In this document: positions 111-63,300 of the stretch, piece by piece | Layout of the letters: every line of letters starts with the position of its first letter | Position numbering within the stretch: the first letter of the stretch is position 1 | Assembly: GCF_028641065.1 (NCBI RefSeq) | Contig: NC_073396.1 | Coordinates: forward strand, 4,650,001-4,714,000 | From: Leucoraja erinacea | Taxonomy: Eukaryota | DNA length: 64,000 bases | Reading direction: 5' to 3' | Notes under the pieces: generated by a model | Databases searched by the model: none | Seen by the model: the letters and a program-made list of their open reading frames with translations, nothing else | Told to the model about the DNA's origin: nothing | Translations under genes and position numbers: made by a program

Positions 111-1721
111 TTAGTCCAATTTCCTCTTCCCACCTGAAGATATTTTGACAAGTAAAGCTTTAAGCAATTTACACGCCAGATAAAGGGCAAGCGTCGACAC
201 AGCAACGAGGATGGCGATGACATCCAGCAGGTAGTACTGATAGAAGGGCAGCTCAGTGCCCGCGGCTCGCAAGTGAGCGGCGCCTCGGTGCCTAATGGTG
301 TATTCAATCCAGAAGACCGCCAGCGCTTTGGGTTCCAGCGGGACATCCCGGTGCAAGGCGGATATTCGCTTCATGTTCTCCCCGTAGGAAGGGATCTCGA
401 TGACAGTCTTCACCGCCTGGAAGATCACATCGCTTGTTAAATGAGCCAAGTCCAGCATGATCGCCGCCCCTCGCGTTTTGAGGCGCAGAAGGTTGTCGTA
501 CTGATCGCCCAAAACTGGGATGCCGACCAGAGGGACGCCGTGATAAATGGCCTCGTAGAGCCCGTTCTCCCCACCGTGGGTGATGAAGGCTCTGGTCTTC
601 GGGTGACCCAGCAGATCGTTTTGAGGAAGCCAACTCATCACCTTGGTGTTATTCCCTAAGGTGGATGGCGCGTCTCCAACCAAGCGCCAGACCACTCTCT
701 GGGGTAGGCGGGCCAGTCCCGCCGCCAATTCAGTCGCCAGTTCTGGTGGGTAGATGCTCACCACACTTCCCAAGGAGAAGATCACGACCCCTTGGTCCCC
801 AGAACCGTCCATGAACCGCTGCAGTTCAGCAGAGAGCGGGCGGCCCGCGCTACACTGAACACCCCCGATGTAAACCAGGTTTGGCATGGTGGGCCGGGGA
901 TAATCAAAGGCAAAGTCAACCTTCATCAGGACCATGTCAGCCTTGGCATAAAGCTCTTCCACCGTGATGTCGCTGTCCAGGTAACGCCGACACAGCTCGT
1001 TATAGGCGGGGTAAATGTAGAAGTAACTTGTGAATCTGGACATCTCATAGATCAACACGTTCTTCATCCTCTCCCACACCGACATCCTGTCCGACAAGCG
1101 GGAATTTACCACGGGCACGAAGGAAAGTGGCGACGGAGCCAAGTTAAAGTGGAGGTCCCCGGTGATCATCCACCTGCCAAAGAACACCAGCGGCGTGCCC
1201 AGTACCTGTGCCAACATGGCCCCGGCCGCATGGTAAGGGTCGGCTAAAGTCAGGTCAAACCCTGCTCCTTTCAGTCGCTGCAACAGTGCGCGGTCGTCAA
1301 ACAACGCGCGGATGACCGGGATGGTCACCTCTTTGTTGAGTAGGAATAAGCTCAACATGCTGCGGGCGGCGGCGAAGCTGGAGAGGAAGCCGTCTTCCAC
1401 GTAGAGCGAGTTGAAGACAATGTCACGGATTTCGCTCGCGTTCCGCGTTTTGCGCGACTCAGCTGCCGGCACCAGGATAGTTTCCAGCGTGAAATCCTCG
1501 GATGTTGTTTCCAACCCCCGCGAGTCGTTGCTCCTCAGCACCGTCACTTGGTGCCCGCTCGCCACCAGTTCCAGGAGCAGGGTCTTCATGATGATCCAGT
1601 GGCTCCAGTCGGCGGGCACGGCCAGGATCTTGGCCGCTTCTGAGCCGCGATTCCCCGCAGAGGAGAAGAGCGCGGCGCCCAGCAGGAGCGCCAGCAACGA
1701 CGCCCTGCTTCTCACTGACAT
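111..1721 (-). CDS. UDP-glucuronosyltransferase, intronless CDS (UGT5-like), copy 1, 536 aa
   Basis: Signal peptide, catalytic His motif PADWSHW, UGT signature WLPQNDLLGHPKTRAFITHGGENGLYEAIYHGVPLVGIPVLGDQ, C-terminal TM helix and KxKxx tail (KRKLD). First ATG at 1721; the ORF-track start at 1745 is a TTG. Subfamily inferred from the intronless CDS. Confidence 0.93.
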   Translation of the reverse strand: MSVRSRASLLALLLGAALFSSAGNRGSEAAKILAVPADWSHWIIMKTLLLELVASGHQVTVLRSNDSRGLETTSEDFTLETILVPAAESRKTRNASEIRDIVFNSLYVEDGFLSSFAAARSMLSLFLLNKEVTIPVIRALFDDRALLQRLKGAGFDLTLADPYHAAGAMLAQVLGTPLVFFGRWMITGDLHFNLAPSPLSFVPVVNSRLSDRMSVWERMKNVLIYEMSRFTSYFYIYPAYNELCRRYLDSDITVEELYAKADMVLMKVDFAFDYPRPTMPNLVYIGGVQCSAGRPLSAELQRFMDGSGDQGVVIFSLGSVVSIYPPELATELAAGLARLPQRVVWRLVGDAPSTLGNNTKVMSWLPQNDLLGHPKTRAFITHGGENGLYEAIYHGVPLVGIPVLGDQYDNLLRLKTRGAAIMLDLAHLTSDVIFQAVKTVIEIPSYGENMKRISALHRDVPLEPKALAVFWIEYTIRHRGAAHLRAAGTELPFYQYYLLDVIAILVAVSTLALYLACKLLKALLVKISSGGKRKLD

Positions 1722-2029
1722 TCTTCCACCAAGTTTGTATCCCAACCAGGAAACAAATGTTTGTATCCCAACCTATTCCTACCTTTGGGATCGAATTACA
1801 CTTCCTGGTTAGTTATCAACTGGCCACCACTGAACACATCCCGCTGAACCGCCGATTAAATCAGTTGTCGTTCCTACAGAAGCAAAATAAGCGAAATTAA
1901 CTCGAATTGAATTGTTTTACAAATTCTTTCCCCACACTGCATGGTTCATTCTTTTCTCAGATCCCCGGTGAGTGCTTTTTGCTCCTTCACTGAAAAATTT
2001 CCATTAAGATCTGACTAATCTTCAACATT

Positions 2030-3011: not shown

Positions 3012-3225
3012 CAAGAGGGAACTGCAGATGCTGGTATAAACCGAAGGTAGACACAGAAAGCTGGAGCAACTCAGCGAGACAGGCAGCATCTCTGGAGAGA
3101 AGGAACGGGTGATGTTTCGGGTCGAGAAGTCTGAAGAAGGGTCTTGACCCGAAACGTCAAATATTCCTTCTTTCCAGAGATACTCCCTGATCCGCTGAGT
3201 TACTCCAGCTTTTTTTGTGTCCGTC
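3012..3225. repeat. Inverted pair of Penelope-derived terminal repeats with hammerhead-like core
   Basis: About 90 bp arms centred near 3127; ctgaaga-agggtcttgaccc-gaaacgtc at 3131-3158. Confidence 0.75.
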
Positions 3226-3294
3226 TTTAGCAACATTATGCTTTGGTTTTGCACGGGTCACTTTAAAAAATGTCTTGTCACATCTCAAGAGAAT

Positions 3295-3510
3295 CGAGAC
3301 AATAGGTGCAGGAGTAGGCCATTCGGCCCTTCGAGCCAGCACCGCCATTCAATGTGATCATGGCTGATCATCCACAATCAGTACCCCGTTCCTGCCTTCT
3401 CCCCATATCCCCTGACTCCGCTATCTTTAAGAGCACTATCTATATCTCTCTTGAAAGCATCCAGAGAACCTGCCTCCATCGTCCTCTGAGGCAGAGAATT
3501 CCACAGACAA
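3295..3510 (-). mobile_element. CR1-type LINE 3' end
   Basis: Minus translation LWNSLPQRTMEAGSLDAFKRDID plus 3' UTR; near-identical to copies at 12765 and 18615. Confidence 0.85.
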
Positions 3511-4544: not shown

Positions 4545-4830
4545 TAAGTGACGCTGGAAAAATTTAATATGAATCTGAGGGGTAACCTTTTCACACAAAA
4601 GCTGGTGGGTGTATGGAACAAGCTTCCAGAGGAAGTAGTTGGGGCAGGGACTATTGTAACGTTTAAGCTACAATTAGACAGGATAGGAAAGAATTTGAGG
4701 TATTGGGCCAAACGCAGGCAAGTGAGACAAGTGTAGATGGGACATGTTGGTTGGTGTGGGCATGTTGGGCCGAAGGGCCTGTTTCCACGCTGTATGACTC
4801 TATGACTCCATCACTATAACTCTAAGATTC
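4545..4830 (+). mobile_element. CR1-type LINE 3' end with tandem tail
   Basis: RGNLFTQKLVGVWNKLPEEVV, gggccgaagggcctgtttcc stem-loop, (tatgactc)n tail. Confidence 0.8.
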
Positions 4831-4899
4831 TATGAATGACTAACCCTATGATTCTATCACTCGATGACTATCACTCTAGGACTATGATCCCATGACTCC

Positions 4900-5077
4900 A
4901 TCACTCACTCACTCACTCACTCACTCACTCACTCACTCACTCACTCACTCACTCACTCACTCACTCACCCACTCACTCAAGCTCACTCACACTCACTCAC
5001 TCTCACTCACTCACTCACTCACTCACTCACTCACTCACTCACTCACTCACTCACTCACTCACCCACTCACTCACTCA
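4900..5077. repeat. (TCAC)n microsatellite
   Basis: Tandem TCAC array with few interruptions, adjoining the CR1 tail. Confidence 0.97.
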
Positions 5078-5384
5078 ACCACTCTGTGACTATATGACCA
5101 TGACTCTGACTCGACCACTCAATCATCTAGCACTCTAAGACTGCATCTGATAACACGAGTCACAGGTTCAGCAAGTCCTCTCAGTAGCGCCAAGAGGGGC
5201 AGGTGTAAGGGAGAGAGGTCAAAAAACAATAGTTCCTACAAATCTTTTCAATGTGTTGAATTTTTTATTTTTTTGTTTTTATGGCATTTCTGCATTCATT
5301 TTCAATTTATTTTTTGTAAATCTTCATGATGCATTTGCCCACCAATTCAGCCCGTGGTCCGGCTTCACCGGCAAACGAAGAACA

Positions 5385-6125
5385 CTGGAGCAAAACAGAA
5401 AGTGCTGGAGTAACTCAGCGGCTCAGGCGGCGTCTGTGGAGAGAGGGGGCGGGCGACGTTTCAGGCGGGACGCGTCCCGATGCTGCAGGAGCGAGGCTGG
5501 GTCAGAACATGGTGAGACAACAGCAGAACAACGGGGATCATGGAGGGGGGGGGGGGGGGGGGGTGGTGTGAGAGAGGGTCTCACAGAACTCTCACCGGAA
5601 TTAGGAAGAAAACCTCTTCAACGTGGGAAGGACGCAAAGTGCTGGAGTAACTCAGCAGATCAGTCAGCATCTTTGGAGAACATGGAAAGGTGACATTTCG
5701 GGTCGGGGCCCTCCTTCAGAGTGAAGGCACAAGGAACCGCAGATGCAGGTTTACAAATAAAAAGACACAAAGTGCTGGAGTGTAACTCAGCGGGACAGGC
5801 CGCATCCGTGTAGATGGGTAGGTAACGGATCGAGACCTTTCTTCAGCCCCTTCTTCAAAGTAGGCATACCTTGAGGAGATTCGGCAATGGGGCATAAAAC
5901 GCAGACACAAAGAACTGCAGAAGCTGAAATCTTGAAAGCTGAAGTTACTCCGCGGGTCAAGCAGCATCTTTGATGAACGAGGATAGATGATGTTTCGTGT
6001 CGGGGGCCCTTCTTCAGACTGCAGACACAAAGAACTGCAGATAAAAAAAAACACAACGTGCTGGAACAGGCATTTGGAACATGGATGGGGTAACGTTACG
6101 GGTCGGGACCTTTCTTCAGGCCGCT
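5385..6125 (-). repeat. Cluster of about five tandem Penelope-derived terminal repeat copies
   Basis: Repeated gctggagtaactcagc...gcagcatc...gtttcgggtc..gacccttcttcag units in the same orientation. Confidence 0.7.
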
Positions 6126-6213: not shown

Positions 6214-7842
6214 TCAATCTACTTTCTTCAATTTAGTCCTTGTCCTTCTTCCAACTGAATGCATTTTGACAAGTAGAAATATCAGCAATTTACACGCCAG
6301 ATAAAGGGCAAGCGTCGACACAGCAACGAGGATGGCGATGACATCCAGCAGGTAGTACTGATAGAAGGGCAACTCAGTGCCCGCGGCTCCCAAATGAGCG
6401 GCGCCTCGGTGCCTAATGGTGTATTCAATCCAGAAGACCGCCAGCTCTTTGGGTTCCAGCGGGACATCCCGGTGCAAGGTGGATATTCGCTTCATGTTCT
6501 CCCCGTAGGAAGGGGTCTCGATGACAGTCTTCACCGCCTGGAAGATCACATCGCTTGTTAAATGAGCCAAGTCCAGCATGATCGCCGCCCCTCGCGTTTT
6601 GAGGCGCAGAAGGTTGTCGTACTGATCAAATAAAACTGGGATGCCGACCAGAGGGACGCCGTGATAAATGGCCTCATAGAGCCCGTTCTCCCCACCGTGG
6701 GTGATGAAGGCTCTGGTCTTCGGGTGACTCAGCAGATCGTTTTGAGGAAGCCAACTCATCACCTTGGTGTTATTCCCTAAGGTGGATGGCGCGTCTCCAA
6801 CCAAGCGCCAGACCACTCTCTGGGGCAGGCGGGCCAGTCCCGCCGCCAATTCAGTCGCCAGTTCTGGTGGGTAGATGCTCACCACACTTCCCAAGGAGAA
6901 GATCACGACCCCTTGGTCCCCAGAACCGTCCATGAACCGCTGCAGTTCAGCAGAGAGCGGGCGGCCCGCGCTACACTGAACACCCCCGATGTAAACCAGG
7001 TTTGGCATGGTGGGCCGGGGATAATCAAAGGCAAAGTCAACCTTCATCAGGACCATGTCAGCCTTGGCATAAAGCTCTTCCACCGTGATGTCGCTGTCCA
7101 GGTAACGCCGACACAGCTCGTTATAGGCGGGGTAAATGTAGAAGTAACTTGTGAATCTGGACATCCCATAGATCAACACGTTCTTCATCCTCTCCCACAC
7201 CGACATCCTGTCCGACAAGCGGGAATTTACCACGGGCACGAAGGAAAGTGGCGACGGAGCCAAGTTAAAGTGGAGATCCCCGGTGATCATCCACCTGCCA
7301 AAGAACACCAGCGGCGTGCCCAGTACCTGTGCCAACATGGCCCCGGCCGCATGGTAAGGGTCGGCTAAAGTCAGGTCAAACCCTGCTCCCTTCAGTCGCT
7401 GCAACAGTGCGCGGTCGTCAAACAACGCGCGGATGGCCGGGATGGTCATCTCATTGTTAAAGAGGAGTGAGGCATACATGCTGCGGGCGGCGGCGAGGCT
7501 GGAGAGGAAGCCGTCTTCCACGTAGAGCGAGTTGAAGACAATGTCACGGATTTCGCTCGCGTTCCGCGCTCTGTACGCCTGAGCTGCCGGCACCAGGATA
7601 GTTTCCAGCGTGAAATCCTCGGATGTTGTTTCCAACCCCCGCGAGTCGTTGCTCCTCAGCACCGTCACCTGGTGCCCGCTCGCCACCAGTTCCAGGAGCA
7701 GGGTCTTCATGATGATCCAGTGGCTCCAGTCGGCGGGCACGGCCAGGATCTTGGCCGCTTCTGAGCCGCGATTCCCCGCAGAGGAGAAGAGCGCGGCGCC
7801 CAGCAGGAGCGCCAGCAACGACGCCCTGCTTCTCACTGGCAT
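6214..7842 (-). CDS. UDP-glucuronosyltransferase, intronless CDS (UGT5-like), copy 2, 542 aa
   Basis: Intact ORF nearly identical to copy 1; same catalytic His, UGT signature, TM helix; KKxx tail (KKVD). Confidence 0.93.
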   Translation of the reverse strand: MPVRSRASLLALLLGAALFSSAGNRGSEAAKILAVPADWSHWIIMKTLLLELVASGHQVTVLRSNDSRGLETTSEDFTLETILVPAAQAYRARNASEIRDIVFNSLYVEDGFLSSLAAARSMYASLLFNNEMTIPAIRALFDDRALLQRLKGAGFDLTLADPYHAAGAMLAQVLGTPLVFFGRWMITGDLHFNLAPSPLSFVPVVNSRLSDRMSVWERMKNVLIYGMSRFTSYFYIYPAYNELCRRYLDSDITVEELYAKADMVLMKVDFAFDYPRPTMPNLVYIGGVQCSAGRPLSAELQRFMDGSGDQGVVIFSLGSVVSIYPPELATELAAGLARLPQRVVWRLVGDAPSTLGNNTKVMSWLPQNDLLSHPKTRAFITHGGENGLYEAIYHGVPLVGIPVLFDQYDNLLRLKTRGAAIMLDLAHLTSDVIFQAVKTVIETPSYGENMKRISTLHRDVPLEPKELAVFWIEYTIRHRGAAHLGAAGTELPFYQYYLLDVIAILVAVSTLALYLACKLLIFLLVKMHSVGRRTRTKLKKVD

Positions 7843-7937
7843 TCTTCCACCCTGTGGGACCGTGAGAGCTCGCCACCGTGGCGCCGTGAGAGCTCGCTTT
7901 GATGCTGAGATTTGTCTTGCACAACCCCCCTTCAGAT

Positions 7938-8260
7938 GGACACAAAGTGCTGGAGTAACTCAGCGAGTCAGGCAGCATCTCTGGAGAACAAGGGTGAGCG
8001 ACCTTTCGGGTCGAGACCCTTCTTCAGACTGGTTGTAGCAGCGAGAAGGAAAGTGGACAAGGGTTGAGGCAGAACCAACCGCGGGGGTCATGTCGACATC
8101 GGTGATTGGCGGTTTTGACAGGCAGATTATTGGAACCAGGCCACGGGGGAATGAAGCGGAGGGGAGGGAGTGTTTTGTGTGTATGAGTGGGGGAGCGGGG
8201 GTGGTATTCTGTAGAGTTGACCTAACATTGGAATATTCAATGTTCCTACATTGGGTTGTG
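7938..8260 (-). mobile_element. Penelope-like element 3' fragment (GIY-YIG C-terminus remnant plus terminal repeat)
   Basis: 8222-8260 reads on minus, with one frameshift, QPN-x-RNIEYSNV, resembling the LGSLQPNGMNIEFSNF end of Penelope ORFs; contiguous with the terminal repeat at 7938-8030. Confidence 0.65.
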
Positions 8261-8490: not shown

Positions 8491-8844
8491 ACTACCCAAG
8501 CATGCAGATAGTATATGGATAGCGAGCTTTATTGGTGTCAAGGATTACAAAGTGTCGAGGGTTATTATATAAAGAGTAGACGTTGTTTCCTCTTCAATGC
8601 AGATGTACGGGGCAAGTATTTCACACGAGCATAGTGGGGGCCTGCAATGCCTTGCCTTGCCTTGGTGGTGATGGAGGCAGATACAACAGTGATGTTTAAG
8701 TGACTTTTAGATAGGCACATGGACATGCGGGGGGGAATAGATCCTGTACAGGCAGATGAGTTCAGTTTAGCTTGGCATCATGTTCGGCACAAACGTTGTG
8801 GGCCGAAGGGCCCGTTCCTGAGCTGCGCTGTTCTGTATAGAAAG

Positions 8845-9042
8845 AAAGAACAGCAGATGCTGCTTTGTACCAAAGATAGACACAAGTGCTAGAGTATCTC
8901 GGCAGGCCAGGCAGCATCTCTGGAGAAAAAGGGTGGGTAGGTGAGACAGTCTGAAGAAGGGTCCGGACCCAAAACGTCACCCATCCTTACTCGCCAGAGA
9001 TGCTACCTGATCCTCTGAGTTACTCCAGCACTTTGTGTCTAT
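8845..9042. repeat. Inverted pair of Penelope-derived terminal repeats
   Basis: Arms gatagacacaagtgct...ctggaga and ccagaga...agcactttgtgtctatc; core at 8951-8978 with GAAA changed to AAAA. Confidence 0.72.
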
Positions 9043-11427: not shown

Positions 11428-11592
11428 AGACACAAAATGCTGGAGTAACTCAGAGGCAGCATTTCTGGAGAGAAGGCATGGGTGAGGCTTCGGGTCGAGA
11501 CCCATCTTCAGACGTCTCAACCCGAAACCTCACCCATTCCTTTTCTCCATAGATGCTGCCTGCCCCCCTGTTACTCCAGCTTTTTGTGTCTG
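11428..11592. repeat. Inverted pair of Penelope-derived terminal repeats
   Basis: agacacaaaatgctggagtaac ... gttactccagctttttgtgtct. Confidence 0.72.
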
Positions 11593-12424
11593 GATTTGAC
11601 TGGATAGCATGCAGGCCAAGCTTTTCACTATACCTCGATATACATAACAATAAATAAACTAAACTAAATAGTCCAGCTGCTGAATTAGGGAACTAAACCA
11701 CTTAAGAGATATGGCTGTGGTAAGTGTTTCGGCCCGAAACGTTGCCTATTTCCTTCGCTCCATAGATGCTGCTGCACCCGCTGAGTTTCTCCAGCAATTT
11801 TGTGTACCTTCACTTAAGAGATGCTTTGCAGGTTGACAAGCAGAAAACAAGCTGTCTTGTACCCTCCCTGCAGTTATCAGCTAACATTGCCTCTTAAGAA
11901 CAGTTTGTCAGTTTCACCGCTGGCCTCCATTGACCCGTGATCACCTCTATTGACACTTGTGCATTGATACTCCATTAGAGAATGTACCACACAGCCTTTT
12001 GTATATTTAATTTTCAGTAACAAAAAAAAAACATAACTGCTAAAATGACCTTTATTTTTTTATAAACTCATGCAGGAAAAATAATTTTGTTGCTGCAAGT
12101 CTGAAACTCTCTAGCACCCAACCAACTTTGGCTCGTTGTTGACACTTGTTTTTTTTATGATGCGATTTTCTATAACGCAAGGTTTCTTGGAATGAAACCA
12201 TCGAGTTATATCAAAACTACTTGTACTTCACCAGCCGATGTAGCAATGCGCGGGGGCAGAGGATCCAAGTTACAAAGAAGAGGTCCGCGTACATCACACA
12301 TATAATGTCTCCCAGCAGAGGGGGAATTCCTATTGCAATATCACTGCATCGTTAACCATTCTTCTGCCTTTTGCGCAGGAACTCTGAATTTGTGAACTAC
12401 TTGGTGATCTTTTTTAATTTCTTA

Positions 12425-12648: not shown

Positions 12649-12764
12649 GACTTTATTGAACTGTTGCATTTTCTTCTCAAAACCAAAAATATGTTGGTGT
12701 TAATATTGGTGTCGGGCTTATTGTTTTAATATCTATTTATTGCGTGTAACGAAAGAATGTAAGT

Positions 12765-13186
12765 CAATAGACAATAGACAATAGGTGCAGGAGTAGGCCA
12801 TTCGGCCCTTGGAGCCAGCACCGCCATTCAATGTGATCATGGCTGATCATCCCCAATCAGTACCCCGTTCCTGCCTTCTCCCCATATCCCCTAACTCCGC
12901 TATTTTTAAGAGCCCTATCTAGCTATCGCTTGAAACTATCCAGAGAACCGGCCTCCACCGCCCTCTGCGGCAGAGAATTCCACAGACTCACAACTCTCTG
13001 TGAGAAAAAGTGTTTCCTTGTCTCCGTTCTAAATGGCTTACTCCTTATTCTTAAACTGTGGCCCCTGGTTCTGGACTCCTCCAACACCGGGAACATGTTT
13101 CTTGCCTCTAGCGTGTCCAAACCCTTAACAATCTTATATGTTTCAATAAAATTCCCTCTCATCCTTCTAAACTCCAGAGTGTACAA
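12765..13186 (-). mobile_element. CR1-type LINE 3' fragment, young
   Basis: YTLEFRRMRGNFIETYKI...RGHSLRIR...FFSQRVVSLWNSLP; (ctattgt)n tail. Confidence 0.9.
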
Positions 13187-14302
13187 GTCATATGTTTAAT
13201 GGAGTATTGTTGTGTCTATACCAATAGAAGTGATCGTTTGCCAATTTGTCGCTGGCAAGGCGAACTTTACCTTCCTACTTTACCTTAATTTAACTTTAAA
13301 AATCTTAATGTATAACAACATTCAAAATTCATCTTGTCAATTGACCTTTCCACCAGAATCAAAAAATTAAAAAATTAAAAATAACACACACAATATTCAC
13401 CAGCAGGACGGCCTGGTGATTTTGATTAAACCATGTCGGTGGATATGTGAGAAGATTCGGCACTTCCATGTAAAACCATACCCGACAACTGCAGTGTGGA
13501 GGAAGGAACTGCAGATGCAGGTTAACACCGAAGATAAACACAACATGCTGGAGTAACTCAGCGGGTCCGGCGGCATCTGGACCTGGAGAAAAGGTGACGT
13601 TTCGGATAGAGACCCTTAATCAGATCCAGTTTACCCCCCTCCCAGTAACAGCATCAGTACCAGTGCAGTTACTGCCAAACGCGGCGACCCCGCACCTCTA
13701 GTATTTCACATCCTGCTTCGCTCACGGATCAAGTAAGTAAACAAATTGGGGCTTTTATTTGTTTACACTTAAGAGTTCAATTATTGTTTCACAAGCAAAC
13801 ATGTTACCAACTGCCCCGAGCTCCACATCTCAGCGCTCCCCTACCAGACTCGCACATTGCCCCGGCTGCTACCTCCACGCCCACAATACCCTTCCATTGC
13901 CGCGGGGACCACAGTGGAGAGCGCGGGTGTGCAGCGAGCCCCCGTTAAAGGAAAGACTCCCCCCCCCCCCACACCCATAGAGGTTTCAAGTTACACACGA
14001 TGCTAAACTTCAGATGAAGGGTCTACCGTCTATGTACCTTCACGAGGTGTTCACGGTGTGAGTGCCGGGCGGTGGGAGCTGTGGAACACTGGACTGACTG
14101 CCAGTGCCAAGACTGTGAGCGGAGGCGGGAGACACATAAATCTCCCAGACACTTTCCCACGGCTGCTGCCTCCAGCGACATCGAATCTGAAACGCGTGTT
14201 CCGTCTACTAGTTATTGGGTAACATCTGGGCAAAGGCACTGAGCCAAACTACCCAACTGCACCCTGCGGAAAGATCATTATCATTTTTCCTTTTTAAAAA
14301 AA

Positions 14303-14615: not shown

Positions 14616-15329
14616 GAACAGGGATCTGATTCTCCAGGCTTCTCGTCTAGTTTGCATCTAACCTCGTCGTCCTTTCCGCACTCAAAGACCACTGAGGAAT
14701 TGACACCAAGTTGCGGGCGTCAGTCGCTCTTGAAACGATACATCGCTGCAGCGGAGAGTTCACTTCAAAACTTTAAGTTATTCAACTTTGTCGAATTCGA
14801 GAGGGGAGCCATTTCAGTGTTATAACTCATCCGTGGACGGAAGAAACCGCTGTCGAAATATCTTCAACAGTCCAAATCATTTGTTGGAACAAGTATATTT
14901 ATTCGTTCGAATCCACCTCTTCTTTGGCTGGGAATTTTTTTCTTTTTAAGATAGATCTCAACTCTAAACGTTGTCTGTCCATTCCCTCCACAGATGCTGC
15001 CTGACCCGCTGAGTTACTCCGGCACTTAGCGCTTTGCTCAAGACTCCAGCATCTGCGGCTTTTGGTGTCTCCTCTTATTTGATTAACGACGCGTTGATCA
15101 GAAGACATAATGCGGACATTATGTTAATATGGAGCAAACTGCAAGTGAGAATGACATTGTTCTGTTTGGGACCTATGACAATAAAACAACTCTGACTCAC
15201 TCTTGATTAATATATATCATCTGGGTAGTATTATTGATCTGATTTGCCTGCGTAGAAATAATCTTTGTTAACAATATTGTAGGTGAATTGATTCAAAAGT
15301 GTTTGGTTTAGAAGGAACGGCATTTGGAT

Positions 15330-16370
15330 ATGGAGGTGCCAGGTATTGGCACTCAGGGTAACTTGTCCACCATTGGAAACTTTTCCTCTTCAGCCCCAGG
15401 GCAAGTGAATGAGAAACTGCTGACAATATTGCTGGGGACCATTCTGAGCGCCATGTGTTTGATGGGAGTTATAGGCAATGTCTACGTCCTGGTGGTGATG
15501 AATTTGTCCATGAGGTTCACTGGCTCCATGTACACCTACATAGTAAACTTGGCTTTGGCCGACCTCCTCTACCTCACCACCATCCCATTTGTGGTGTGCA
15601 CCTACTTTGCGAAGGACTGGTACTTTGGAGAACTTGGCTGTAGATTCCTGCTCAGCTTGGACTTCCTGACTATGCACGCCAGCATCTTCATATTGACTGT
15701 CATGAGCATTGAGAGATACTTAGCAGTGGTGAAACCCCTGACGACGTATAGGAAAAACAACGGCTACAGGAGGGTCATCATTAGTGTGGTATGGCTGGTT
15801 TCTATTCTCCTTGCCCTTCCTACGATGGTAATGACCGATCTCAGAGAATTTGCCAAGAACGGGACAATAAAACGCATGTGCGGCTCCACATGGCCAAAAC
15901 ATACTTACAGAATCTATCTGACTGTGCTTTTTAATACTTGTATACTGACTCCAGGGATATTAATTGGATTCTTATACATAAAGTTAGCTCGTACTTACTG
16001 GACATCCCAAAGCAGGAAGGAAGTGACAAAGGCACCAAAGCTGAAAATCCTCTATATGATTTTTGGGATTGTCCTAATATATGATATCTGTTACTTGCCT
16101 TTTTGGGTATGGCAATTGTTTCATCTCTACATTGAATCTGCAACTATTTCTCCCACCACAGTTGCCATCGTTAATTTGTTTGTGACATGCCTGGCATACT
16201 GCAACAGCTGCATCAATCCTTTCCTCTACACCTTACTGACAAAAAATTACAAAGAGTATCTGAGGAACCAAAAGGCAAAGTTCTCCAAAAGGAAATGCCA
16301 CAGGGTTTTGTCCCAAAGATCAACGTCTTCTGGACATCATCCGTGCACAGAGAGTCTATCGTACACTTAA
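15330..16370 (+). CDS. Urotensin-II receptor-like class A GPCR, intronless CDS, 346 aa
   Basis: Seven hydrophobic segments; NLALADLL, UTS2R-typical LLSLDFLTMHASIFILTVMSIERY, LPFW, NSCINPFLYTLLTKNYKEY; N-terminal glycosylation sequons. First ATG at 15330 (ORF track starts at an upstream TTG). Subtype not assignable by eye. Confidence 0.88.
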   Translation: MEVPGIGTQGNLSTIGNFSSSAPGQVNEKLLTILLGTILSAMCLMGVIGNVYVLVVMNLSMRFTGSMYTYIVNLALADLLYLTTIPFVVCTYFAKDWYFGELGCRFLLSLDFLTMHASIFILTVMSIERYLAVVKPLTTYRKNNGYRRVIISVVWLVSILLALPTMVMTDLREFAKNGTIKRMCGSTWPKHTYRIYLTVLFNTCILTPGILIGFLYIKLARTYWTSQSRKEVTKAPKLKILYMIFGIVLIYDICYLPFWVWQLFHLYIESATISPTTVAIVNLFVTCLAYCNSCINPFLYTLLTKNYKEYLRNQKAKFSKRKCHRVLSQRSTSSGHHPCTESLSYT

Positions 16371-18614: not shown

Positions 18615-19185
18615 CTAGTGAGACCACACCTGGAGTGTGCAGTTTTGGTCCCCTAACTTGTGGAAGGACATTCTTGCTATTGAGGGAGTGCAGCGTAGGT
18701 TTACAAGGATAATTCCCGGGATGGCGGGACTGTCATATGCTGAGAGAATGAAGCAGCTGGGCTTGTACACTCTGGAGTTTAGAAGGATGAGAGGATATCT
18801 TATTGAAACATATAAGATTGTTAAGGGTTTTCGACACGCTGGAGGCAGGAAACAGGTTCCCGATGTTGGGGGAGTCCAGAACCAGGGGCCACAGTTTAAG
18901 AATAAGGGATAAGCCATTTAGAACAGAGACGAGGAAACACTTTTTCCTCACAGAGAGTTGTGAGTCTGTGGAATTCTCTGACTCAGAGTGCGGTGGAGGC
19001 ATGTTCTCTAGATGCTTTCAAGAGAGAGAGCTGGATAGGGCTCTTAAAGAAAGCGGAGTCAGGGGATATGGGGAAAAGGCAGGAACGGGGTACTGATTGG
19101 GGATGATCAACCATGATCACATTGAATGGCAGTGTTGGCTCGAAGGATGAATGGCCTACTCCTGCACCTATTGTCTATTGTCTAT
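18615..19185 (+). mobile_element. CR1-type LINE ORF2 3' fragment
   Basis: LVRPHLE..QFWSP..KDILAIEGVQRRFTR..LGLYTLEFRRMRG with frameshifts; (ctattgt)n tail. Confidence 0.92.
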
Positions 19186-19843: not shown

Positions 19844-22800
19844 AATTTGGTACGAAACTGATGCCACTCAAAATAATAATGAGCTGCTGGTTTTATCTTA
19901 GTTAGATCAAATATATTAAACTAAATACAATACTCCATTGTTACAAAGGAAGAGAGGTTTCTCAGGATACGATTGAGTGGAAAAATAGTTGTTTTTGGTG
20001 ACGTCCAAGACTAATTCATAACATGATTGAGGTTTTCATTTAATTATGTGAGACCTTGGGGATAGGACACAAAATCCCCCAGTATTAATGTATACCGCAG
20101 GAGAATGAGACCTTACTGTGCACCACAATTGGGAAAATCACTAGGCACTGGGAAATGAAGTCAACAACATTAGTATTCCTGGCACTAGATCATCTCAAAT
20201 TTATAACATGAGATTTCTGGTCCCAAGAAATCCAACGAGAAAAAGGTCAGGGAAGAAGAGTCTCAACCCGAAACGTCACCCATTTCTTCTCTCCAGAGAT
20301 GCTGCCTGGCCCACTGAGTTACTCCAGCATTTTGTGTCTAAGGTCAGGGAAGCTTCAGTGTTAGACTCCCGAAAACCCAATTTTACTTCTGCAAACCCTA
20401 ATCAAAGTTGACCTTCTACAGTACTTGTTTGGGCCGATATATAGTTGGGAGTATGAGTATTTACATTTTATTTATAAAACCTTAACAATGAAAACTTGAA
20501 ATAGCACTAATCATAGATAATCTCAGGTTGATACCTGCTCGGTATATTTTCTAACTAAAGAAAAAAAAAAACAGTTTAACAAGGGACAATTCTGGCAGTC
20601 AAAGACAAACTTGCCTCGGAATGATTTACAAAAGTGAAGGATCACTCACTGTGTCATTATGTTCGGATTAATCTCACCAGCCATTGTGATCTTTGCTTCT
20701 GCATGGTCAGAGTTTGCGGGCACTGGAGTCTACAATAACATGACATCTGAACTTCTGGACTCAAATCCCTGACTGATGAAGATCAACATGCCAAACACCT
20801 CCTTCACCATCCTGTCAAGTCAATTTTTATTCCATGGATGAGGGGCTTTAGTTGCCTGGATAGACTGGAGAAGTTGGAATCATTCTCTTTAGAACTGAAA
20901 AGGTCAATAGGGGATATGAAAAAAACCTTAAAATTACAAAGAGCAGCTGAACGGATGGAGTAGGCTCCTGTTGACCAAAGGGTGAGGAGTGAAAGTGATT
21001 GGCAAAACAACTCATTGTGATATGAGATGATATTTCTACTTTATTGTGCCCCTGGGGTATGGGCAGGGTCTGCAAATGTTTGCTGAGGGTTGTAGTAGTG
21101 GCAGATTCAGTTGTTTCATTCAAGAAGGAACTGACTAAGTAGTAGAAACGATAAATAAAACACCATGCAAAGAGGGATACTGGAATTTGCAAGAAGCTTG
21201 CAACAGTCACTGATTGTACATGTTTTAGCTTGAACCAGTGTAATCTGATTTGCTCACGAATTGAGCTGATCAAGAGTCAAATGTACTGACAATGGAACAA
21301 TTATATTCTTACTTGCAGCAGCATATCAGGACTGTAAACACGATACTCAGACGTATAATAAACAAGAATTCAATAAATCAGACATATTGGTGCAGACACA
21401 TTGGACTGAGTAGCCTCTTTCCACACTATAACCTTCCTGTTATGTTGATAATTGTGATAATTCTTATTGCAATTGCACCATTTAACACTGTGGACCCTCA
21501 TAAAGTCCCAGGAACCATCAGCAGTACGTGCCCAGCCTATGAAACACCACTGCGACTTACATCCCATGTACACATATAGCATACATTCCCATGATTTTCA
21601 GATATCATTTCCTGGAACCAAGATAGCTTTGAATTAAAAACACATGTAATGTTACTCACTGTGAGAATTACATCTTGCACGTCATATGCCATTGGAATTA
21701 TAAACTATTCTAAAAGAAAAAAAAGATGAGAAAATAAATTATCTGCCTAATTCAGTTAACTTTGCCTATTATTAAAAAATAAAGTAGCCTATTGGTGATA
21801 CTCTGAACATTGAGTATTGATACCGTGATCACTTTTATCTTGTTAATGGATCTTCAAATTACAAATATTCCTTTATTAACAATGTTATCAATTTAGGTAA
21901 TTATTCATCTAACTTCTATCATGAAGTATTTTGGAGAGATCTTTTATTGCTGTTGGAAAAAGAATTAAAGGGCTCCATAAGTGTGGAATCAATCTCTCTG
22001 ATGGGCTTATTTCAACTACAGAAGTCTTGTCTTCCAGTATTCTTGAATTCTTGGGACCTTGGTGGACTGACACATTCACTGGATTATTCATAACCCAATC
22101 CACTTTTTAAAAATAAATGTTACATCGTAGTATAATACAATACAAAGCTGGAGTAACTCAGCAGGACAGGAGGCACCTCTAGAGAGAAGGAATGGGTAAC
22201 GTTTCGGGTCGAGACCCTTCTTCACTGTCGCTGGGATTGTTACAGTTACAGATTCCTGACATCTTTCAGCCCTCTTGCTTTCCCATGGAAAGCATAAAAA
22301 GAAATTTCTTTAAGAAAAAGGCAGGTATATTTTAAGACACATAAAGAAAAAGTGCCAAAAGTAACACTGCAATTATTGGTGGGAATGCATCCAATGATGC
22401 AGTTTAAGGTACTTTACTGAAATGTGAAGTTGTTAATCACACTATTCTTCGTTTTACTGCACTCATCAGGATTAACAGACAAAAACAAATCAAGTGCTGG
22501 AATGTACAATAATGACATTGTGTTAAACAGTTTCCTTACACTAAAGTTGTAATGTAAAAAGCTCTAAATATTTGCACATAAATGCTTTTTTTTTGTTTTT
22601 CATCTTTAAATGATTTTCACTCTCCCATTATGACCTGGAGAATCAAGCAGGAAACCTTCTTGACAAAAAAATAATTTTAGGATTTCCTAATGCAGTTTAG
22701 TCAAAAACCGCACTTTAAAATTACACTTTAAAAATGTAATTGCAATAACATTAATAAACAAGTCAATTTACACCCCAACCTTTTACAAAGTATAATCCTA

Positions 22801-47244: not shown

Positions 47245-48575
47245 TAAGATCATAAGATCATAACTGGTAGGAGTAGAAGTAGGCCATTCGGCCCATCAAG
47301 TCTACTCCGCCACTCAATCATGGCTGATCTATCTCTCCTTCCTAACCCCATTCTCCTGCCTTCTCCCCATAACCTCTGACACCCGAACTAATCAAGAATC
47401 TATCCATCTCTGCCTTAAATATATCCACCGACTTTGCCTCCGCAGCCTGCTGTGGCAAAGATTTCCAGATTCACCACCCTCTGACTAAAGAAATTCCTCC
47501 TCATCTCTTTCCTAAAATAACCTCCTTTAATTCTGAGGCTATGACCTCTAGTCCTAGACTCTCCCACAAGTGGAAACATCCTCTCGACATCCATTCTATC
47601 CAGCCTTTCATTATTCTGTACTTTCAATGAGGTCCCCCTCAATCTTCTAAACTCCAGCGAATAAGGGCCCAGTGTCATCAAACGCTGATCATATGTTAAC
47701 CTGCTCATTCTTGGAATCATTCTTATAAACCTCCACTGGACCCTTTCCAGAACCAGCACATCCTTCCTCAGATATGGTGCCCAAAATTGCTCACAATATT
47801 CCAAATGTGGCCTCAGCTTTACATCCCTGTTTTTGTGTATTAACCTTCTTGAAATAGATGCTTGCATTGAGTTTATTTTCTTTACTACCGATTCGACTTG
47901 CAGATTGACTGATTAACAGGGAATCCTGCACCAAGTCCCTTTGCACCTCCGATTTCTGGATTCTCTCCCCATTTAGAAAATAATCTACACCTTTATTCCT
48001 ACGATCAAAATGCATGACTCCACACTTTGGTACACCATATTTCATCTGCCACTGCCCATTCACCCAACCTATCCAAGTCCTGCAGAATCCCTGCTTTCTA
48101 TACACTACCTGTCCCTCCACCTATTTTCGTATCATCCGCAAACTTGGCCACAAAGTCTTCAATCCCCTCATCCAAATCATTAATATACAACGTGAAGAGC
48201 AGCGGAGCCAGCACTGAGCCCTGTGGAACACCACTAATCACTGGCAGACTACCAGAAAAAGCCCCCCTTATTGCCACTCTTTTCTTTCTGCCGTCCAGCC
48301 AATCTGATAATCCTTGCTAGTATCTGCCGTTTGATACCATGGGCTCTCATCTTCCTTAGCAGCCTCCCATGTGGTACCTTATCAAATGCTTTCTGAAAAT
48401 CTAGGTATACTACAGACTCCCCTTTGTCTGTCCTGCTATTTACTTCTTAAAAGATTTCCAGCACATTTGTCAGGCAAGACAAAGCCATGCCGCCTACGCC
48501 CTATTTTATCATGCACTTCGGAGGACTCCATAACCTCATCCTTTATAATGGACACTAAAATCTTACCAGCCATCC
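47245..48575 (-). mobile_element. CR1-type LINE ORF2 3' 1.3 kb, degenerate
   Basis: GVPQGSVLAPLLFTLYINDLD, KFADDTK, RPHLEYCEQFWAPY, RGHSLRIKG motifs with frameshifts; (tcttatga)n tail. Confidence 0.92.
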
Positions 48576-60287: not shown

Positions 60288-60380
60288 GACTGAAGAAGGG
60301 TTTCGGCCCGAAACGTTGCCTATTTCCTTCGCTCCATAGATGCTGCTGCACCCGCTGAGTTTCTCCAGCTTTTTTGTGTA
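60288..60380 (+). repeat. Young Penelope-derived terminal repeat with hammerhead-like core
   Basis: ctgaaga-agggtttcggccc-gaaacgtt at 60290-60317; nearly identical to the copy at 11726-11810. Confidence 0.72.
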
Positions 60381-63300
60381 ACCTGACAAAAGATTAACAT
60401 CTGTACCACATGCTGTGGACATCCAAATGTTTCTCCAACTCCTCTGACAATCTTACTGGAAGCAGTGAAAGTTGAGGGAGCACAAGGACATCTTCTGTGG
60501 ACATTTCAAAATGAAGACAATGTGAGTGAAAGTCGACACTACACTGGAGATTAACTGGTTTGGAACATGTATACGGGAAAGATTAAAATGTAACATCAAG
60601 ATGTCAAACATTGAAGTTTGCTTTTATTTGCACTTTCTCCTCAACTACCAGGTTCACAGTGGGAAACTTGTGGAACTGAGCTCGACAAAGCAGCCCAAAC
60701 TTAAGTGTTCTGTGGGTTACATTTTGTTATAGAAAAAGTACTAAATAATGCTCACAAGAATACAGTCCAAAACAATTAGTTTGCATTTATTTTCAAACTG
60801 ATGTTAAATATATAGATAATTAAAAAATTGAAACGATTACATTTTCCAATTAAAGCTGCAAACTATATTTGAGCGTCAAATTTAGACCACCAGGGAAATA
60901 ATTACAATGACCTTTATTATAAGCTGCAGCCAGACGTTACCATAGAAATAATATTCCAAAGCAATAATACAGGCTCTATTTTGAAATGGAGCGAATGGCA
61001 TTAAAAAAAAAAAATAAGAGCAGGAAATGCTATTCCAGCCCCTCGAACCTGCATGAATAGAATCAAGGATGATATGTCACCTGAAACAACTATTTTCTTG
61101 CTTTGAATTTTTCTTTGAATGCAATCAACGGTCCTCTCAGGTGCACAATACCAAAGATGAGTTTTTAAAAAACTGATTTCAGCCCTACATAGCTTAGTTC
61201 TTAATTTGCCATTCTGTTTCACAGATGTACCACAGTGAATCTAGCCTCACTTCAACAATGGAATCCCAAGTTCAAGTTGGAGAAACCTTCTGTATATGTC
61301 ATTGTCTAGGTAAACAGACTTCCCATGTGGCCTAGGATGCATATTTCAGTTGGCTGAACAGCTCTACCTTGTCTCGCTCAGAAAAGGTAAGTGGGAGAAC
61401 AGGACTGATGGGCAGCATAGACCCAATAGCCTCCTCCTGTATCATAAGAAATGACAAATCCATGATAGAAATTTGGCAGAAACTTTTTACAGGTATTTGC
61501 CATCTGCCAACATCCCAATGCAACATCACATATTTAAATCTATGCCAATATTCAGTTGTTCCCACCAATGCACCCACAATTACCCCCCACCTCACAGAAG
61601 CTGTCTTGCTTACCAAGTTCCACACTTTGAGGGCTTTTATACTGAAAGAACACTTTCAAATATCATATTGATATACATTTGACCTTCAAAATTAAAATTA
61701 TTTAATAAGTGCTGGTCAATTATTAAGACATAACAATAACATAACCAGTTCACCATAATGGAAAGTAAACTTTTTAGGTAATACACAGCTTTTAATGGAC
61801 AAGCACAATTAAGTCAAGATATTTTGCCTTTTTCTATGTGCATTTATGTGTATAGTGCATTTATATACGCACTGGTTTTGTAACACAGGTAAGATAATAG
61901 TGTAGGCAATGGAACTTTTGAGGTACAGGAAATGCAAAATAATTTTATGCTGAGATTCATAAATATCAATAGCTTTTAACTTGCACGTAAACTGGCGGAT
62001 GTTAATTTGTGTTTATTGTGTGTTTTGTTGTTTATTATTACATGTATGGCTGCAGGCAATGACATTTCGTTCAGACCGAATGACAAATAAAGGATCTAAG
62101 TCTAAGTCTAAGTTAATGGTTAGAGGAAAGTCTTAAGCAGAATGATTTCCAGAACAGGAGGTGTAGCCAAATGGGACAGCATTAAAAGCTGAACATACAA
62201 GAGAACATGTGCAGAGGACAACTAAGTAAAGGCAAGTGTGAACCGTTTCAATTTAGTTTATTGTCACATGTACCAAGGTATAGTGAAAAGCGTTTGTTGT
62301 GTGCTATCCAGTCAGCAGAATGTTTACAGAGTACTATGTTTACATATCTGTTGTGCTGCTGCAAGTAAGAATTTCATTGTTCCATTTCGGAACATATGAC
62401 AACAAAACACTTTTGATGACTCTCTTGACTCTTGAACTTATCTAAAGCAAAATCAAGGAGCACAGAGACTGAAAAATTGAAGGCTTTTAAAACAGATGCT
62501 TTCTTAAAATTGCTTGTAGGTGAATATTAAAAGTCACAATCTCAGCTACTTGTGTTGCTGAATACTTAAGCAATTACACCAGAAGTTTTACACTGGCGGG
62601 GAAAGCAAAGGGTCCAAAATCATATGCAGCTGGTGGGATAGTACATGATATCATATACAGCTGGTGGTATAGTACAGTGTGTCCTGCTTCAGTCCATGGT
62701 GAACGATACCTACCCACATTGGCAACTTAATGCCGGAAATCAGATCCTGATCAACAAGACCCTTCTTACTGAAAACCAAAGTATCACTCCCAGAAAGGTT
62801 TAAGCAGAGTGCTGGGACTTGTCCAGGCCCAGCAGCCATCAAAAGGCATTGAATGTATGTGAATATCTCAACATTCACATTTTGAAAAATATCTCAAAGG
62901 TGTTAAATCAAACAATTTACCGAAGAATTCAAATATAAACAACTGAAAACGTGATTAGAAACACTAACGCTACCAAGTTAGTAAAGGTGACAGCAAGGCA
63001 GGAGAATGGGGTTAGTAGGGAGAGATAGATCAGCCATGATTGAATGGCAGAGCAGACCTGATGGGCCAAATGGCCTAACTATGCTCCTATCACTTATGAC
63101 CTTTTGGATGATTATGTGTTTACTTAATTATCTCACTTTGGGCTATTTCTCAGCATTGAATAAATATTGCAGTTTAATCTACAAGAAGTCTAACTTGATA
63201 AAGACTCTGCCCCATAATTCCCCAGCTTCTCAACATCACATGCACAAGTGACAAAAATATTTTGGGTAAAATAAAGTACCTCAAATTTTAACCTTCCATT

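What the first reader, a model, noticed from the sequence alone, without database searches (positions are those of the whole stretch)
3131..3158. The most abundant repeat in the window carries a minimal hammerhead-ribozyme-like core
Seen: CTGAAGA + A + stem GGGTC-TT-GACCC + GAAA + CGTC. The same motif recurs well over a dozen times on both strands (e.g. 8951, 60290 on plus; 5989-6017, 8000-8027, 22198-22225 on minus), and the GGG/CCC stem is largely kept while the loop varies. Known: the hammerhead core is CUGANGA-stem II-GAAA-stem III-UH, and Penelope-like elements carry minimal type I hammerheads with a very short palindromic helix III thought to work as dimers. Here helix III reduces to the palindrome ACGU with cleavage after GUC. 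Inference: these are relics or active copies of a ribozyme-bearing retroelement family. Caveats: an extra A follows A9 and helix I is only about 2 bp (GU/AC), so many copies may be inactive.
Basis: partly seen in the sequence, partly recalled or inferred. Interest (0 to 1): 0.7.

Follow-up and report, generated by a model that had tools for sequence, protein, structure and literature searches.

The report
Penelope retrotransposon stubs carrying minimal hammerheads
The repeat is the clipped end of a known kind of jumping gene (a Penelope-like retrotransposon) that carries an already described miniature hammerhead ribozyme motif; most copies, including this one, are likely unable to cut, but their shared front edge likely marks where the element's RNA begins.

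Summary
The motif is real: 18,833 exact genome-wide matches (control 0). It is the minimal type I hammerhead in the pseudo-LTR of an endonuclease-bearing Penelope-like element (Neptune/Nematis type), in what is likely a cartilaginous fish. It lies 88-117 nt behind an RT + zinc-linker + GIY-YIG ORF in 26 of 30 loci, and one partial tandem carries two motifs 3,975 nt apart. Invertebrate relatives keep the core at the same place, with compensatory changes in helices I and II. The 'extra A' is a conserved class feature described in 2014. About 0.9 million arms are extrapolated, roughly 10% with an intact core; copies decay neutrally. The window copy has a 1-bp helix I and is locked in a fold-back, so it is likely inactive. 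Copies span the cleavage site (223 of 303; 3 start there), so insertion likely uses uncut RNA. Half of the intact motifs lose similarity within 4 nt upstream of the core, at a TCAGT initiator match: likely run-off at the RNA's 5' end (inferred). The scan noted this family and this front edge before, on other DNA. Cleavage was not tested.

The parts
3131..3158 (+). Minimal type I hammerhead motif: C3-A9, extra A, 4-bp stem II with 4-nt loop, G12-A15.1, ACGU palindrome, predicted cut after GUC. Core intact, helix I only 1 bp in this copy.
3128..3221 (+). pLTR stub, subfamily A, from -3 to +91 relative to C3 (short 3' end class); right arm of a fold-back
3019..3123 (-). Inverted 5'-truncated pLTR arm (+15 to +122, lacks the CUGANGA half); predicted to pair with the right arm and bury the motif
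60290..60384 (+). Stub of the young subfamily B (stem II GGGU/GCCC, GUU triplet); core intact, helix I absent
8947..9041 (+). Subfamily A stub with G12>A; inverted arm at 8844-8929 (-)
7939..8031 (-). Subfamily A stub; helix III palindrome broken
22147..22224 (-). Subfamily A stub with C3>G
5935..6021 (-). Decayed stub; stem II disrupted, G16.2>A
11428..11591 (.). Fold-back pair of arms (11428-11513 minus, 11520-11591 plus), both motifs broken
11722..11811 (+). Subfamily B stub truncated inside the core

Best explanation
The motif is the minimal type I hammerhead in the pseudo-LTR of an endonuclease-bearing Penelope-like retrotransposon, and the window's copies are short pLTR stubs without the ORF that are likely dead. 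Shown: the anatomy. The ORF (RT, CxxxxCxxC linker, GIY-YIG) ends about 100 nt before the motif; copies end about 94 or 125-133 nt after C3 (the PLE tail); in a partial tandem the next ORF's ATG lies 164 nt after C3; there are 9-15-bp target duplications and frequent inverted 5' arms. Inferred, step 1: in a more-than-unit transcript the two motifs would pair through ACGU to form a dimeric helix III and cut after GUC/GUU, slowly and probably only with protein help, because helix I is 2 bp and a competing hairpin is predicted to win. Inferred, step 2: insertion likely uses uncut RNA, with reverse transcription starting internally at the two tail sites. Inferred, step 3 (about 50%): the RNA starts at a TCAGT initiator 2-3 nt ahead of C3, so priming in the 5' pLTR runs off after 100-135 nt and yields the stubs.
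For: 18,833 exact motifs, control 0. Motif 88-117 nt behind the ORF end in 26 of 30 endonuclease hits. RT + linker + GIY-YIG frames of 752-1193 aa in 20 loci; the pairs with L186 and L187 that were printed are 92-98.5% identical. Pfam RVT_1 E 7.8e-7 and GIY-YIG E 0.006, both just under their cut-offs. Partial tandem L184 with two motifs 3,975 nt apart. Core-only search behind the ORF in invertebrate relatives: 12 of 29 loci, 11 distinct; helix I 32 of 33 pairs at the first three positions (shuffle mean 17.7, 0 of 10,000); stem II 42 of 44 (mean 33.2, 1 of 10,000); N7 free. In a 17-row alignment 7 of 8 pairs change on both sides and the 15 invariant columns are core, the extra A, G10.1-C11.1 and G16.2. 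3' ends: 154 short, 94 long, 55 other of 303. TSDs in 19 of 48 clean copies, control 1 of 234. 223 of 303 copies span the scissile bond, 3 start there. 20,492 of 40,789 intact motifs lose similarity within 4 nt upstream of C3, with the largest losses at -3 (21.7%) and -4 (19.5%).
Against: No cleavage or RNA-end data. Within this genome the helix changes seen are one-sided (U-A to U-G), so covariation rests on distant relatives. 17 of 29 relatives gave no motif in the 450 nt behind the ORF. The 12 relatives in the 17-row alignment were picked with a descriptor that needs stem II, and relatedness is not controlled. The hammerhead fold is 2-5.5 kcal/mol above the MFE in three real copies, P(helix I) at most 0.002. 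The young subfamily has a GUU triplet and a U-G first pair in helix I. For step 3: the boundary is spread over -8 to +1 rather than one base; the cap-G signal is modest (G at -4 in 41 of 100 listed, 29% expected, p 0.009; none at -3, p 0.2); inverted junctions are included in the genome-wide counts; by my reading only about 2 of 11 relatives show an initiator match at the same place. Neptune versus Nematis was not resolved by a tree.
Confidence: 0.88

Rival explanations
1. The stubs are an independent non-autonomous element (retrozyme or SINE-like) that copies itself through ribozyme-cut, circular RNA.
For: Very high copy number (323 arms in 800 kb), defined ends and TSDs. Tandem retrozymes derived from pLTRs are reported in vertebrates, one chondrichthyan included (bioRxiv 10.64898/2026.07.22.740005). 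Occasional head-to-tail pairs occur (L025).
Against: Units are not bounded by the cleavage site: 3 of 303 start there and 223 span it. Stubs carry the same subfamily-diagnostic bases and the same two 3' ends as ORF-bearing copies. 5' ends form a continuum into the 3' UTR and ORF. None of the stubs examined stood in a long tandem array, though I ran no tandem-array search.
Confidence: 0.07
2. The PLE identity holds, but the pile-up of 5' ends just before C3 comes from RT stalling or template switching by microhomology (poly-C tract and small hairpin upstream; UCUG/CAGA and UCAG/CUGA self-complementarity), not from the RNA's start.
For: 101 of 311 (strict) to 139 of 303 (loose) copies have an inverted arm upstream, and 31 of the 85 boundaries at -8 to +1 are inverted. 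Boundaries are spread and carry short extra bases. The 5' core is predicted to pair with sequence 35-47 nt downstream.
Against: Non-inverted copies also peak there: 8.7 per nt at -3 to -1 versus 0.4 per nt at -40 to -9; 46 of 54 remain after removing shared upstream sequence; TSDs abut directly; small G excess at -4.
Confidence: 0.4
3. In this lineage the motif no longer cuts and is kept as a promoter or protein-binding signal; the hammerhead look is inherited.
For: Helix I is 2 bp here against 3-5 bp in relatives. The fold is disfavoured. The young subfamily has GUU. With A(-3) as +1 there is an exact TCAKTY match and a 9 of 12 MTE match at +18 (p 0.003 at a fixed position; consensus from PMC1475891). 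Anole PLE insertion in vitro did not need cleavage (PMC11167929).
Against: Every catalytic position, the extra A and G10.1-C11.1 are the same in subfamilies whose 3' UTRs are unlike. Helix I pairs are kept through U-A to U-G. A 2-bp helix I is described for Drosophila virilis Penelope (PMC4209133), and the anole motif cut once protein was added (PMC11167929). The MTE match overlaps CGAAAC, which the ribozyme fixes anyway.
Confidence: 0.3
4. Chance resemblance: a palindromic repeat that happens to contain CUGANGA and GAAA.
For: Rfam gives no hammerhead hit. Genomic copies show no excess core conservation.
Against: Same position behind a homologous ORF in distant animals with compensatory changes. 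All 31 descriptor hits in 800 kb belong to this family, controls 0 and 0.
Confidence: 0.01

Closest known systems
Minimal hammerheads (min-HHR) in pLTRs of metazoan PLEs: Xena, Poseidon, Neptune (Cervera and De la Pena 2014, PMC4209133; parts 1-2 of 4 read, supplements not seen)
   Same: Type I core without loop 3, palindromic 15.2-16.2, a nucleotide between 9 and 10.1, G10.1-C11.1; mostly solo, dispersed, sometimes opposite-strand pairs; a few inside full PLEs
   Different: Helix I is 2 bp here (4-5 bp in their schistosome families, 2 bp in D. virilis) and helix II 4 bp (7-8 in schistosome). About 85,000 intact motifs extrapolated here versus about 4,000 (coelacanth) and 9,000 (Xenopus). The parts read name no cartilaginous fish.
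EN+ PLEs of the Neptune/Nematis type (Craig et al. 2021, PMC8557442; passages read)
   Same: RT, CX2-5CxxC linker, C-terminal GIY-YIG; 5' truncation, partial tandems, inverted 5' copy, 30-40-bp tail, HHR in the pLTR
   Different: A long proline-rich N-terminal insert; clear 9-15-bp TSDs; extreme excess of ~100-135-bp stubs
PAc, Poseidon of Anolis carolinensis (Frangieh et al. 2024, PMC11167929; parts 1-2 of 4 read)
   Same: Two internal RT start sites defining the tail; uncut RNA as main template; protein-assisted hammerhead
   Different: In PAc the ORF starts at stem II and the RT sites lie 111-118 nt inside the ORF; here the motif and both 3' ends lie in the 5' UTR, ATG 164 nt after C3. Different clade.
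Non-LTR retrozymes (bioRxiv 10.64898/2026.07.22.740005; parts 1-3 of 5 read, supplements closed)
   Same: pLTR-derived, non-coding, type I hammerhead
   Different: Defined as tandem units with an intact HHR each; the copies examined here are mostly solo or fold-back stubs
Pr77/L1TcRz of Trypanosoma cruzi L1Tc (PMC3383444; search listing only)
   Same: Precedent for a promoter and a ribozyme in the same first bases of a retroelement
   Different: HDV-like ribozyme in a non-LTR element; there shown, here only inferred

Membership tests
PLE min-HHR (type I hammerhead) | Core C3 U4 G5 A6 N7 G8 A9 ... G12 A13 A14 A15.1 ... U16.1 H17 | tested here: met
   Intact at 3131 and 60290; invariant in 17 aligned motifs with N7 and H17 free
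PLE min-HHR (type I hammerhead) | Helix II with G10.1-C11.1 and covariation | tested here: met
   42 of 44 pairs in a core-only search, 1 of 10,000 shuffles; 3 of 4 pairs change on both sides; within this genome only one-sided changes seen
PLE min-HHR (type I hammerhead) | Helix I closing around the cleavage site | tested here: met
   32 of 33 pairs in relatives, 0 of 10,000 shuffles; 2 bp in 19 of 31 intact copies of this genome, 3-4 bp in 4, 0-1 bp in 8; 1 bp in the 3131 copy
PLE min-HHR (type I hammerhead) | Extra nucleotide between A9 and 10.1; palindromic 15.2-16.2 | tested here: met
   31 of 31; A in 10 of 11 relatives
PLE min-HHR (type I hammerhead) | Self-cleavage as a dimer | not testable with these tools
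   Needs a bench assay; folding disfavours the active form in naked RNA
EN+ Penelope-like element | Single ORF with RT and C-terminal GIY-YIG | tested here: met
   YIDD motif, LIYC...YIGE motif; Pfam hits just under the curated cut-offs
EN+ Penelope-like element | pLTR from partial tandem, inverted 5' copy, 30-40-bp tail | tested here: met
   L184; inverted arms; 3' ends about 38 nt apart
Neptune clade | CX2-5CxxC linker between RT and EN (shared with Nematis) | tested here: met
   20 of 20 loci
Neptune clade | RT phylogeny with named Neptune references | not tested
   No named reference set at hand; filed as Neptune/Nematis type
Non-LTR retrozyme | Tandem units, each with an intact HHR, bounded by cleavage | tested here: not met
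   3 of 303 copies start at the cut site; window copies are solo or fold-back. No genome-wide tandem-array search was run.

The most novel reading that the evidence does not exclude
The pLTR's first 35 bases are both a Pol II core promoter (TCAGT initiator, downstream elements) and the hammerhead. The RNA starts 2-3 nt before C3, which is why helix I is 2 bp. Internal priming near that 5' end mass-produced close to a million 100-135-bp run-off copies, which would explain the solo minimal hammerheads of animal genomes and map the start site and both RT priming sites from DNA alone. A young subfamily with long open frames offers a direct test.
Probability: 0.45. Interest if true: 0.5.

Novelty: new member of a known kind. 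Interest (0 to 1): 0.27.

Why it matters
The class is known, so the motif itself is no surprise. What remains useful: (1) scale, about 0.9 million arms and about 85,000 intact cores by extrapolation, roughly ten times the counts published for coelacanth and Xenopus; (2) the copy ends are a large natural record of PLE insertion and say that the ribozyme is usually not cut in the template, which bears on the open question of what PLE hammerheads are for; (3) a young subfamily with near-identical long ORFs would give a Neptune/Nematis-type system to set beside the one Poseidon element studied in vitro.

Tried and rejected
Rfam scan: no hammerhead family at E<=5. PDB sequence searches with the ORF and with the profile: nothing meaningful, so the telomerase-like RT was not confirmed this way. 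Sequencing runs: no RNA holder listed; the four runs laid were contigs of uncertain kind and cannot show starts, cuts or splicing; their loose ends fall at the two 3' ends only. Splice-acceptor idea (CAG|U after a pyrimidine tract, as at the D. virilis intron end) as the cause of the 5' edge: rejected, because flanks are unshared in 46 of 54 and TSDs abut directly; an intron in full-length RNA is not excluded. Cleavage-defined ends: rejected. Selection on individual copies: not seen; in 40 subfamily A copies non-CpG core divergence is 7.4%, stem II 8.6%, downstream 9.9% (the last includes subfamily-diagnostic sites), and G12 in a CpG 30%. ORF remnants in the window: none. Luense et al. 2017 (dimer cleavage of small PLE hammerheads) is not held; I know it only by title and a review passage. 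Six literature searches listed no paper on this family or on a start site at the PLE hammerhead; the library lacks most subscription journals and Repbase/Dfam, where the family may well be annotated.

Full report
Observation. The 28 bases at 3131-3158 read as described and the five other cited sites are copies. Eight matches at up to 3 mismatches stand against none in 100 shuffles. The genome (2.19 Gb) holds 18,833 exact matches to the pattern, control 0, and 63,547 to a looser one. The motif heads a longer repeat. A profile built only from the 66 nt after the motif finds 37 arms in the window and 323 in 80 evenly placed 10-kb stretches (reversed control 0). That is 4.0 +/- 0.4 arms per 10 kb, about 0.9 million by extrapolation (the stretches come from the 31 first contigs and were not drawn at random). 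A minimal-hammerhead descriptor finds 31 intact motifs in those 800 kb, all of this family and all with the extra base (controls 0 and 0), and 2 in the window.

Parent element. Upstream of several exact matches lies the end of an ORF. Searching the genome with it gave 120,109 first-look candidates, 150 scored. In 26 of the 30 loci returned the motif lies 88-117 nt behind the ORF end. Longer frames hold an RT (YIDD), a CxxxxCxxC linker and a GIY-YIG-type domain; Pfam RVT_1 and GIY-YIG match just under their cut-offs. The named relatives with the highest identity are shark and ray proteins at 59-67%, so the host is likely a cartilaginous fish. Twenty loci picked for long frames have 752-1193 open codons; the pairs printed are 92-98.5% identical and 18 show the motif behind the ORF: a young subfamily. 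L184 is a partial tandem: truncated copy, motif, ATG 164 nt after C3, ORF with one frame change in a C-rich stretch, second motif 3,975 nt later. This fits the description of EN+ PLEs with the Neptune/Nematis linker (PMC8557442, passages). The window holds no ORF remnant.

Is it a hammerhead? In 80 metagenome loci encoding relatives, 29 had the ORF end plus 200 nt; a search for the core alone found it 83-148 nt downstream in 12, 11 distinct. Helix I paired at 32 of 33 first-three positions (shuffle mean 17.7; 0 of 10,000), stem II at 42 of 44 (33.2; 1 of 10,000), N7 took all four bases, and the extra base was A in 10. Seventeen gave no motif. A 17-row alignment (5 rows from this genome, 12 relatives chosen by a descriptor that requires stem II) has 15 invariant columns (core, extra A, G10.1-C11.1, G16.2); 7 of 8 pairs change on both sides and slid controls fall to 24-40% paired. 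These shuffles ignore relatedness. Cervera and De la Pena (PMC4209133, parts 1-2 of 4) describe this variant in Xena, Poseidon and Neptune pLTRs, list the extra base as conserved, and found no monomer and low dimer cleavage.

State of the copies. In 40 subfamily A copies spanning the core, non-CpG core bases diverge 7.4%, stem II 8.6%, downstream bases 9.9%, and G12, in a CpG, 30%: neutral decay. The 3131 copy keeps the core but has a 1-bp helix I and is the right arm of a fold-back predicted to bury it (z -12.6). In three real copies the hammerhead fold lies 2-5.5 kcal/mol above the MFE; in several the 5' core or the G-rich strand of stem II pairs with downstream pyrimidines. This copy is likely inactive.

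What the ends say. 3' ends fall in two classes, 154 at +84 to +100 and 94 at +120 to +133 of 303, about 38 nt apart in the young subfamily: the PLE tail, which in the anole element marks two internal RT start sites (PMC11167929, parts 1-2 of 4). 223 of 303 copies span the scissile bond and 3 start at it, so the template was likely uncut (or re-ligated), as found in vitro for the anole element. TSDs of 9-15 bp flank 19 of 48 clean copies, control 1 of 234 (60 of the 90 loci were selected for GT before the core). Inverted upstream arms occur in 101 of 311 (strict) to 139 of 303 (loose). 5' ends of non-inverted copies pile up at -3 to -1 (8.7 per nt against 0.4 at -40 to -9); 46 of the 54 at -8 to +1 have unshared flanks. 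Genome-wide, of 40,789 intact motifs 11.1%, 11.1%, 21.7% and 19.5% drop out at -1, -2, -3 and -4; half are gone by -4.

Mechanism. The sequence there is TCAGTC, an exact match to the initiator TCAKTY and to YYANWYY (PMC1475891, passages), with A(+1) at -3. MTE matches 9 of 12 at +18, and GWYV falls at +29 (DPE position recalled, not from a call). I therefore favour, at about even odds, transcription from an internal promoter overlapping the ribozyme, with run-off cDNAs from priming in the 5' pLTR. D. virilis Penelope has an internal Inr/DPE promoter (PMC2377424, passages). Against it: the spread of boundaries, the many inverted junctions, and an initiator match in only about 2 of 11 relatives. 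Stalling or template switching is the main rival.

Verdict. A new member of a known kind: a very abundant chondrichthyan Neptune/Nematis-type PLE with the published minimal hammerhead. Earlier notes of this scan, unchecked, reached the same filing on other windows and genomes; I had written the start-site idea down before reading them, and they are not independent support. Supplements of the cited papers were not seen and may list chondrichthyan motifs.

Noticed in passing
window 111-1772 (-) and 6214-7959 (-): Two near-identical single-frame UDP-glucuronosyltransferase genes in tandem (Pfam UDPGT E 5e-145 and 1e-142; 94% identical over 300 nt). The 3131 fold-back lies between them on the opposite strand.
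   Followed up: partly
window 15312-16370 (+): Intronless rhodopsin-family GPCR (7tm_1 E 3e-52); resembles a urotensin-II receptor (recalled, not tested).
   Followed up: no
window 3285-3508, 12764-13187, 18762-19146, 47251-47912: A second abundant repeat family, probably CR1-type LINE 3' ends (recalled, not tested).
   Followed up: no
window 4807-5126: Array of an 8-nt unit about 2 kb upstream of one UGT gene.
   Followed up: no
L181-L200 (e.g. G000:C4:106336500-106344000, G000:C1054:72000-79500): Young PLE subfamily with open frames up to 1193 codons and a long proline-rich, internally repetitive N-terminal insert that the invertebrate relatives printed do not show.
   Followed up: partly
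L143, L137, L083, L090 (upstream of the motif): A further 3' UTR subfamily with a different pyrimidine-rich upstream sequence and the same ribozyme core.
   Followed up: no
L015 and L018: The same stub inserted in the same position of another repeat in two loci 67 kb apart, 98.5% identical over 412 nt: a local duplication after insertion.
   Followed up: no
L258:2650 (+): A distant relative (34% identity) is followed by a canonical-looking hammerhead: no extra base, 8-bp helix I, 4-nt loop 3.
   Followed up: no
P0003, P0049, P0105: Host gene models named as kinase-domain, chitinase-domain and XIAP isoforms match this PLE ORF over 66-99% of the query: likely mis-annotation or exon capture.
   Followed up: no
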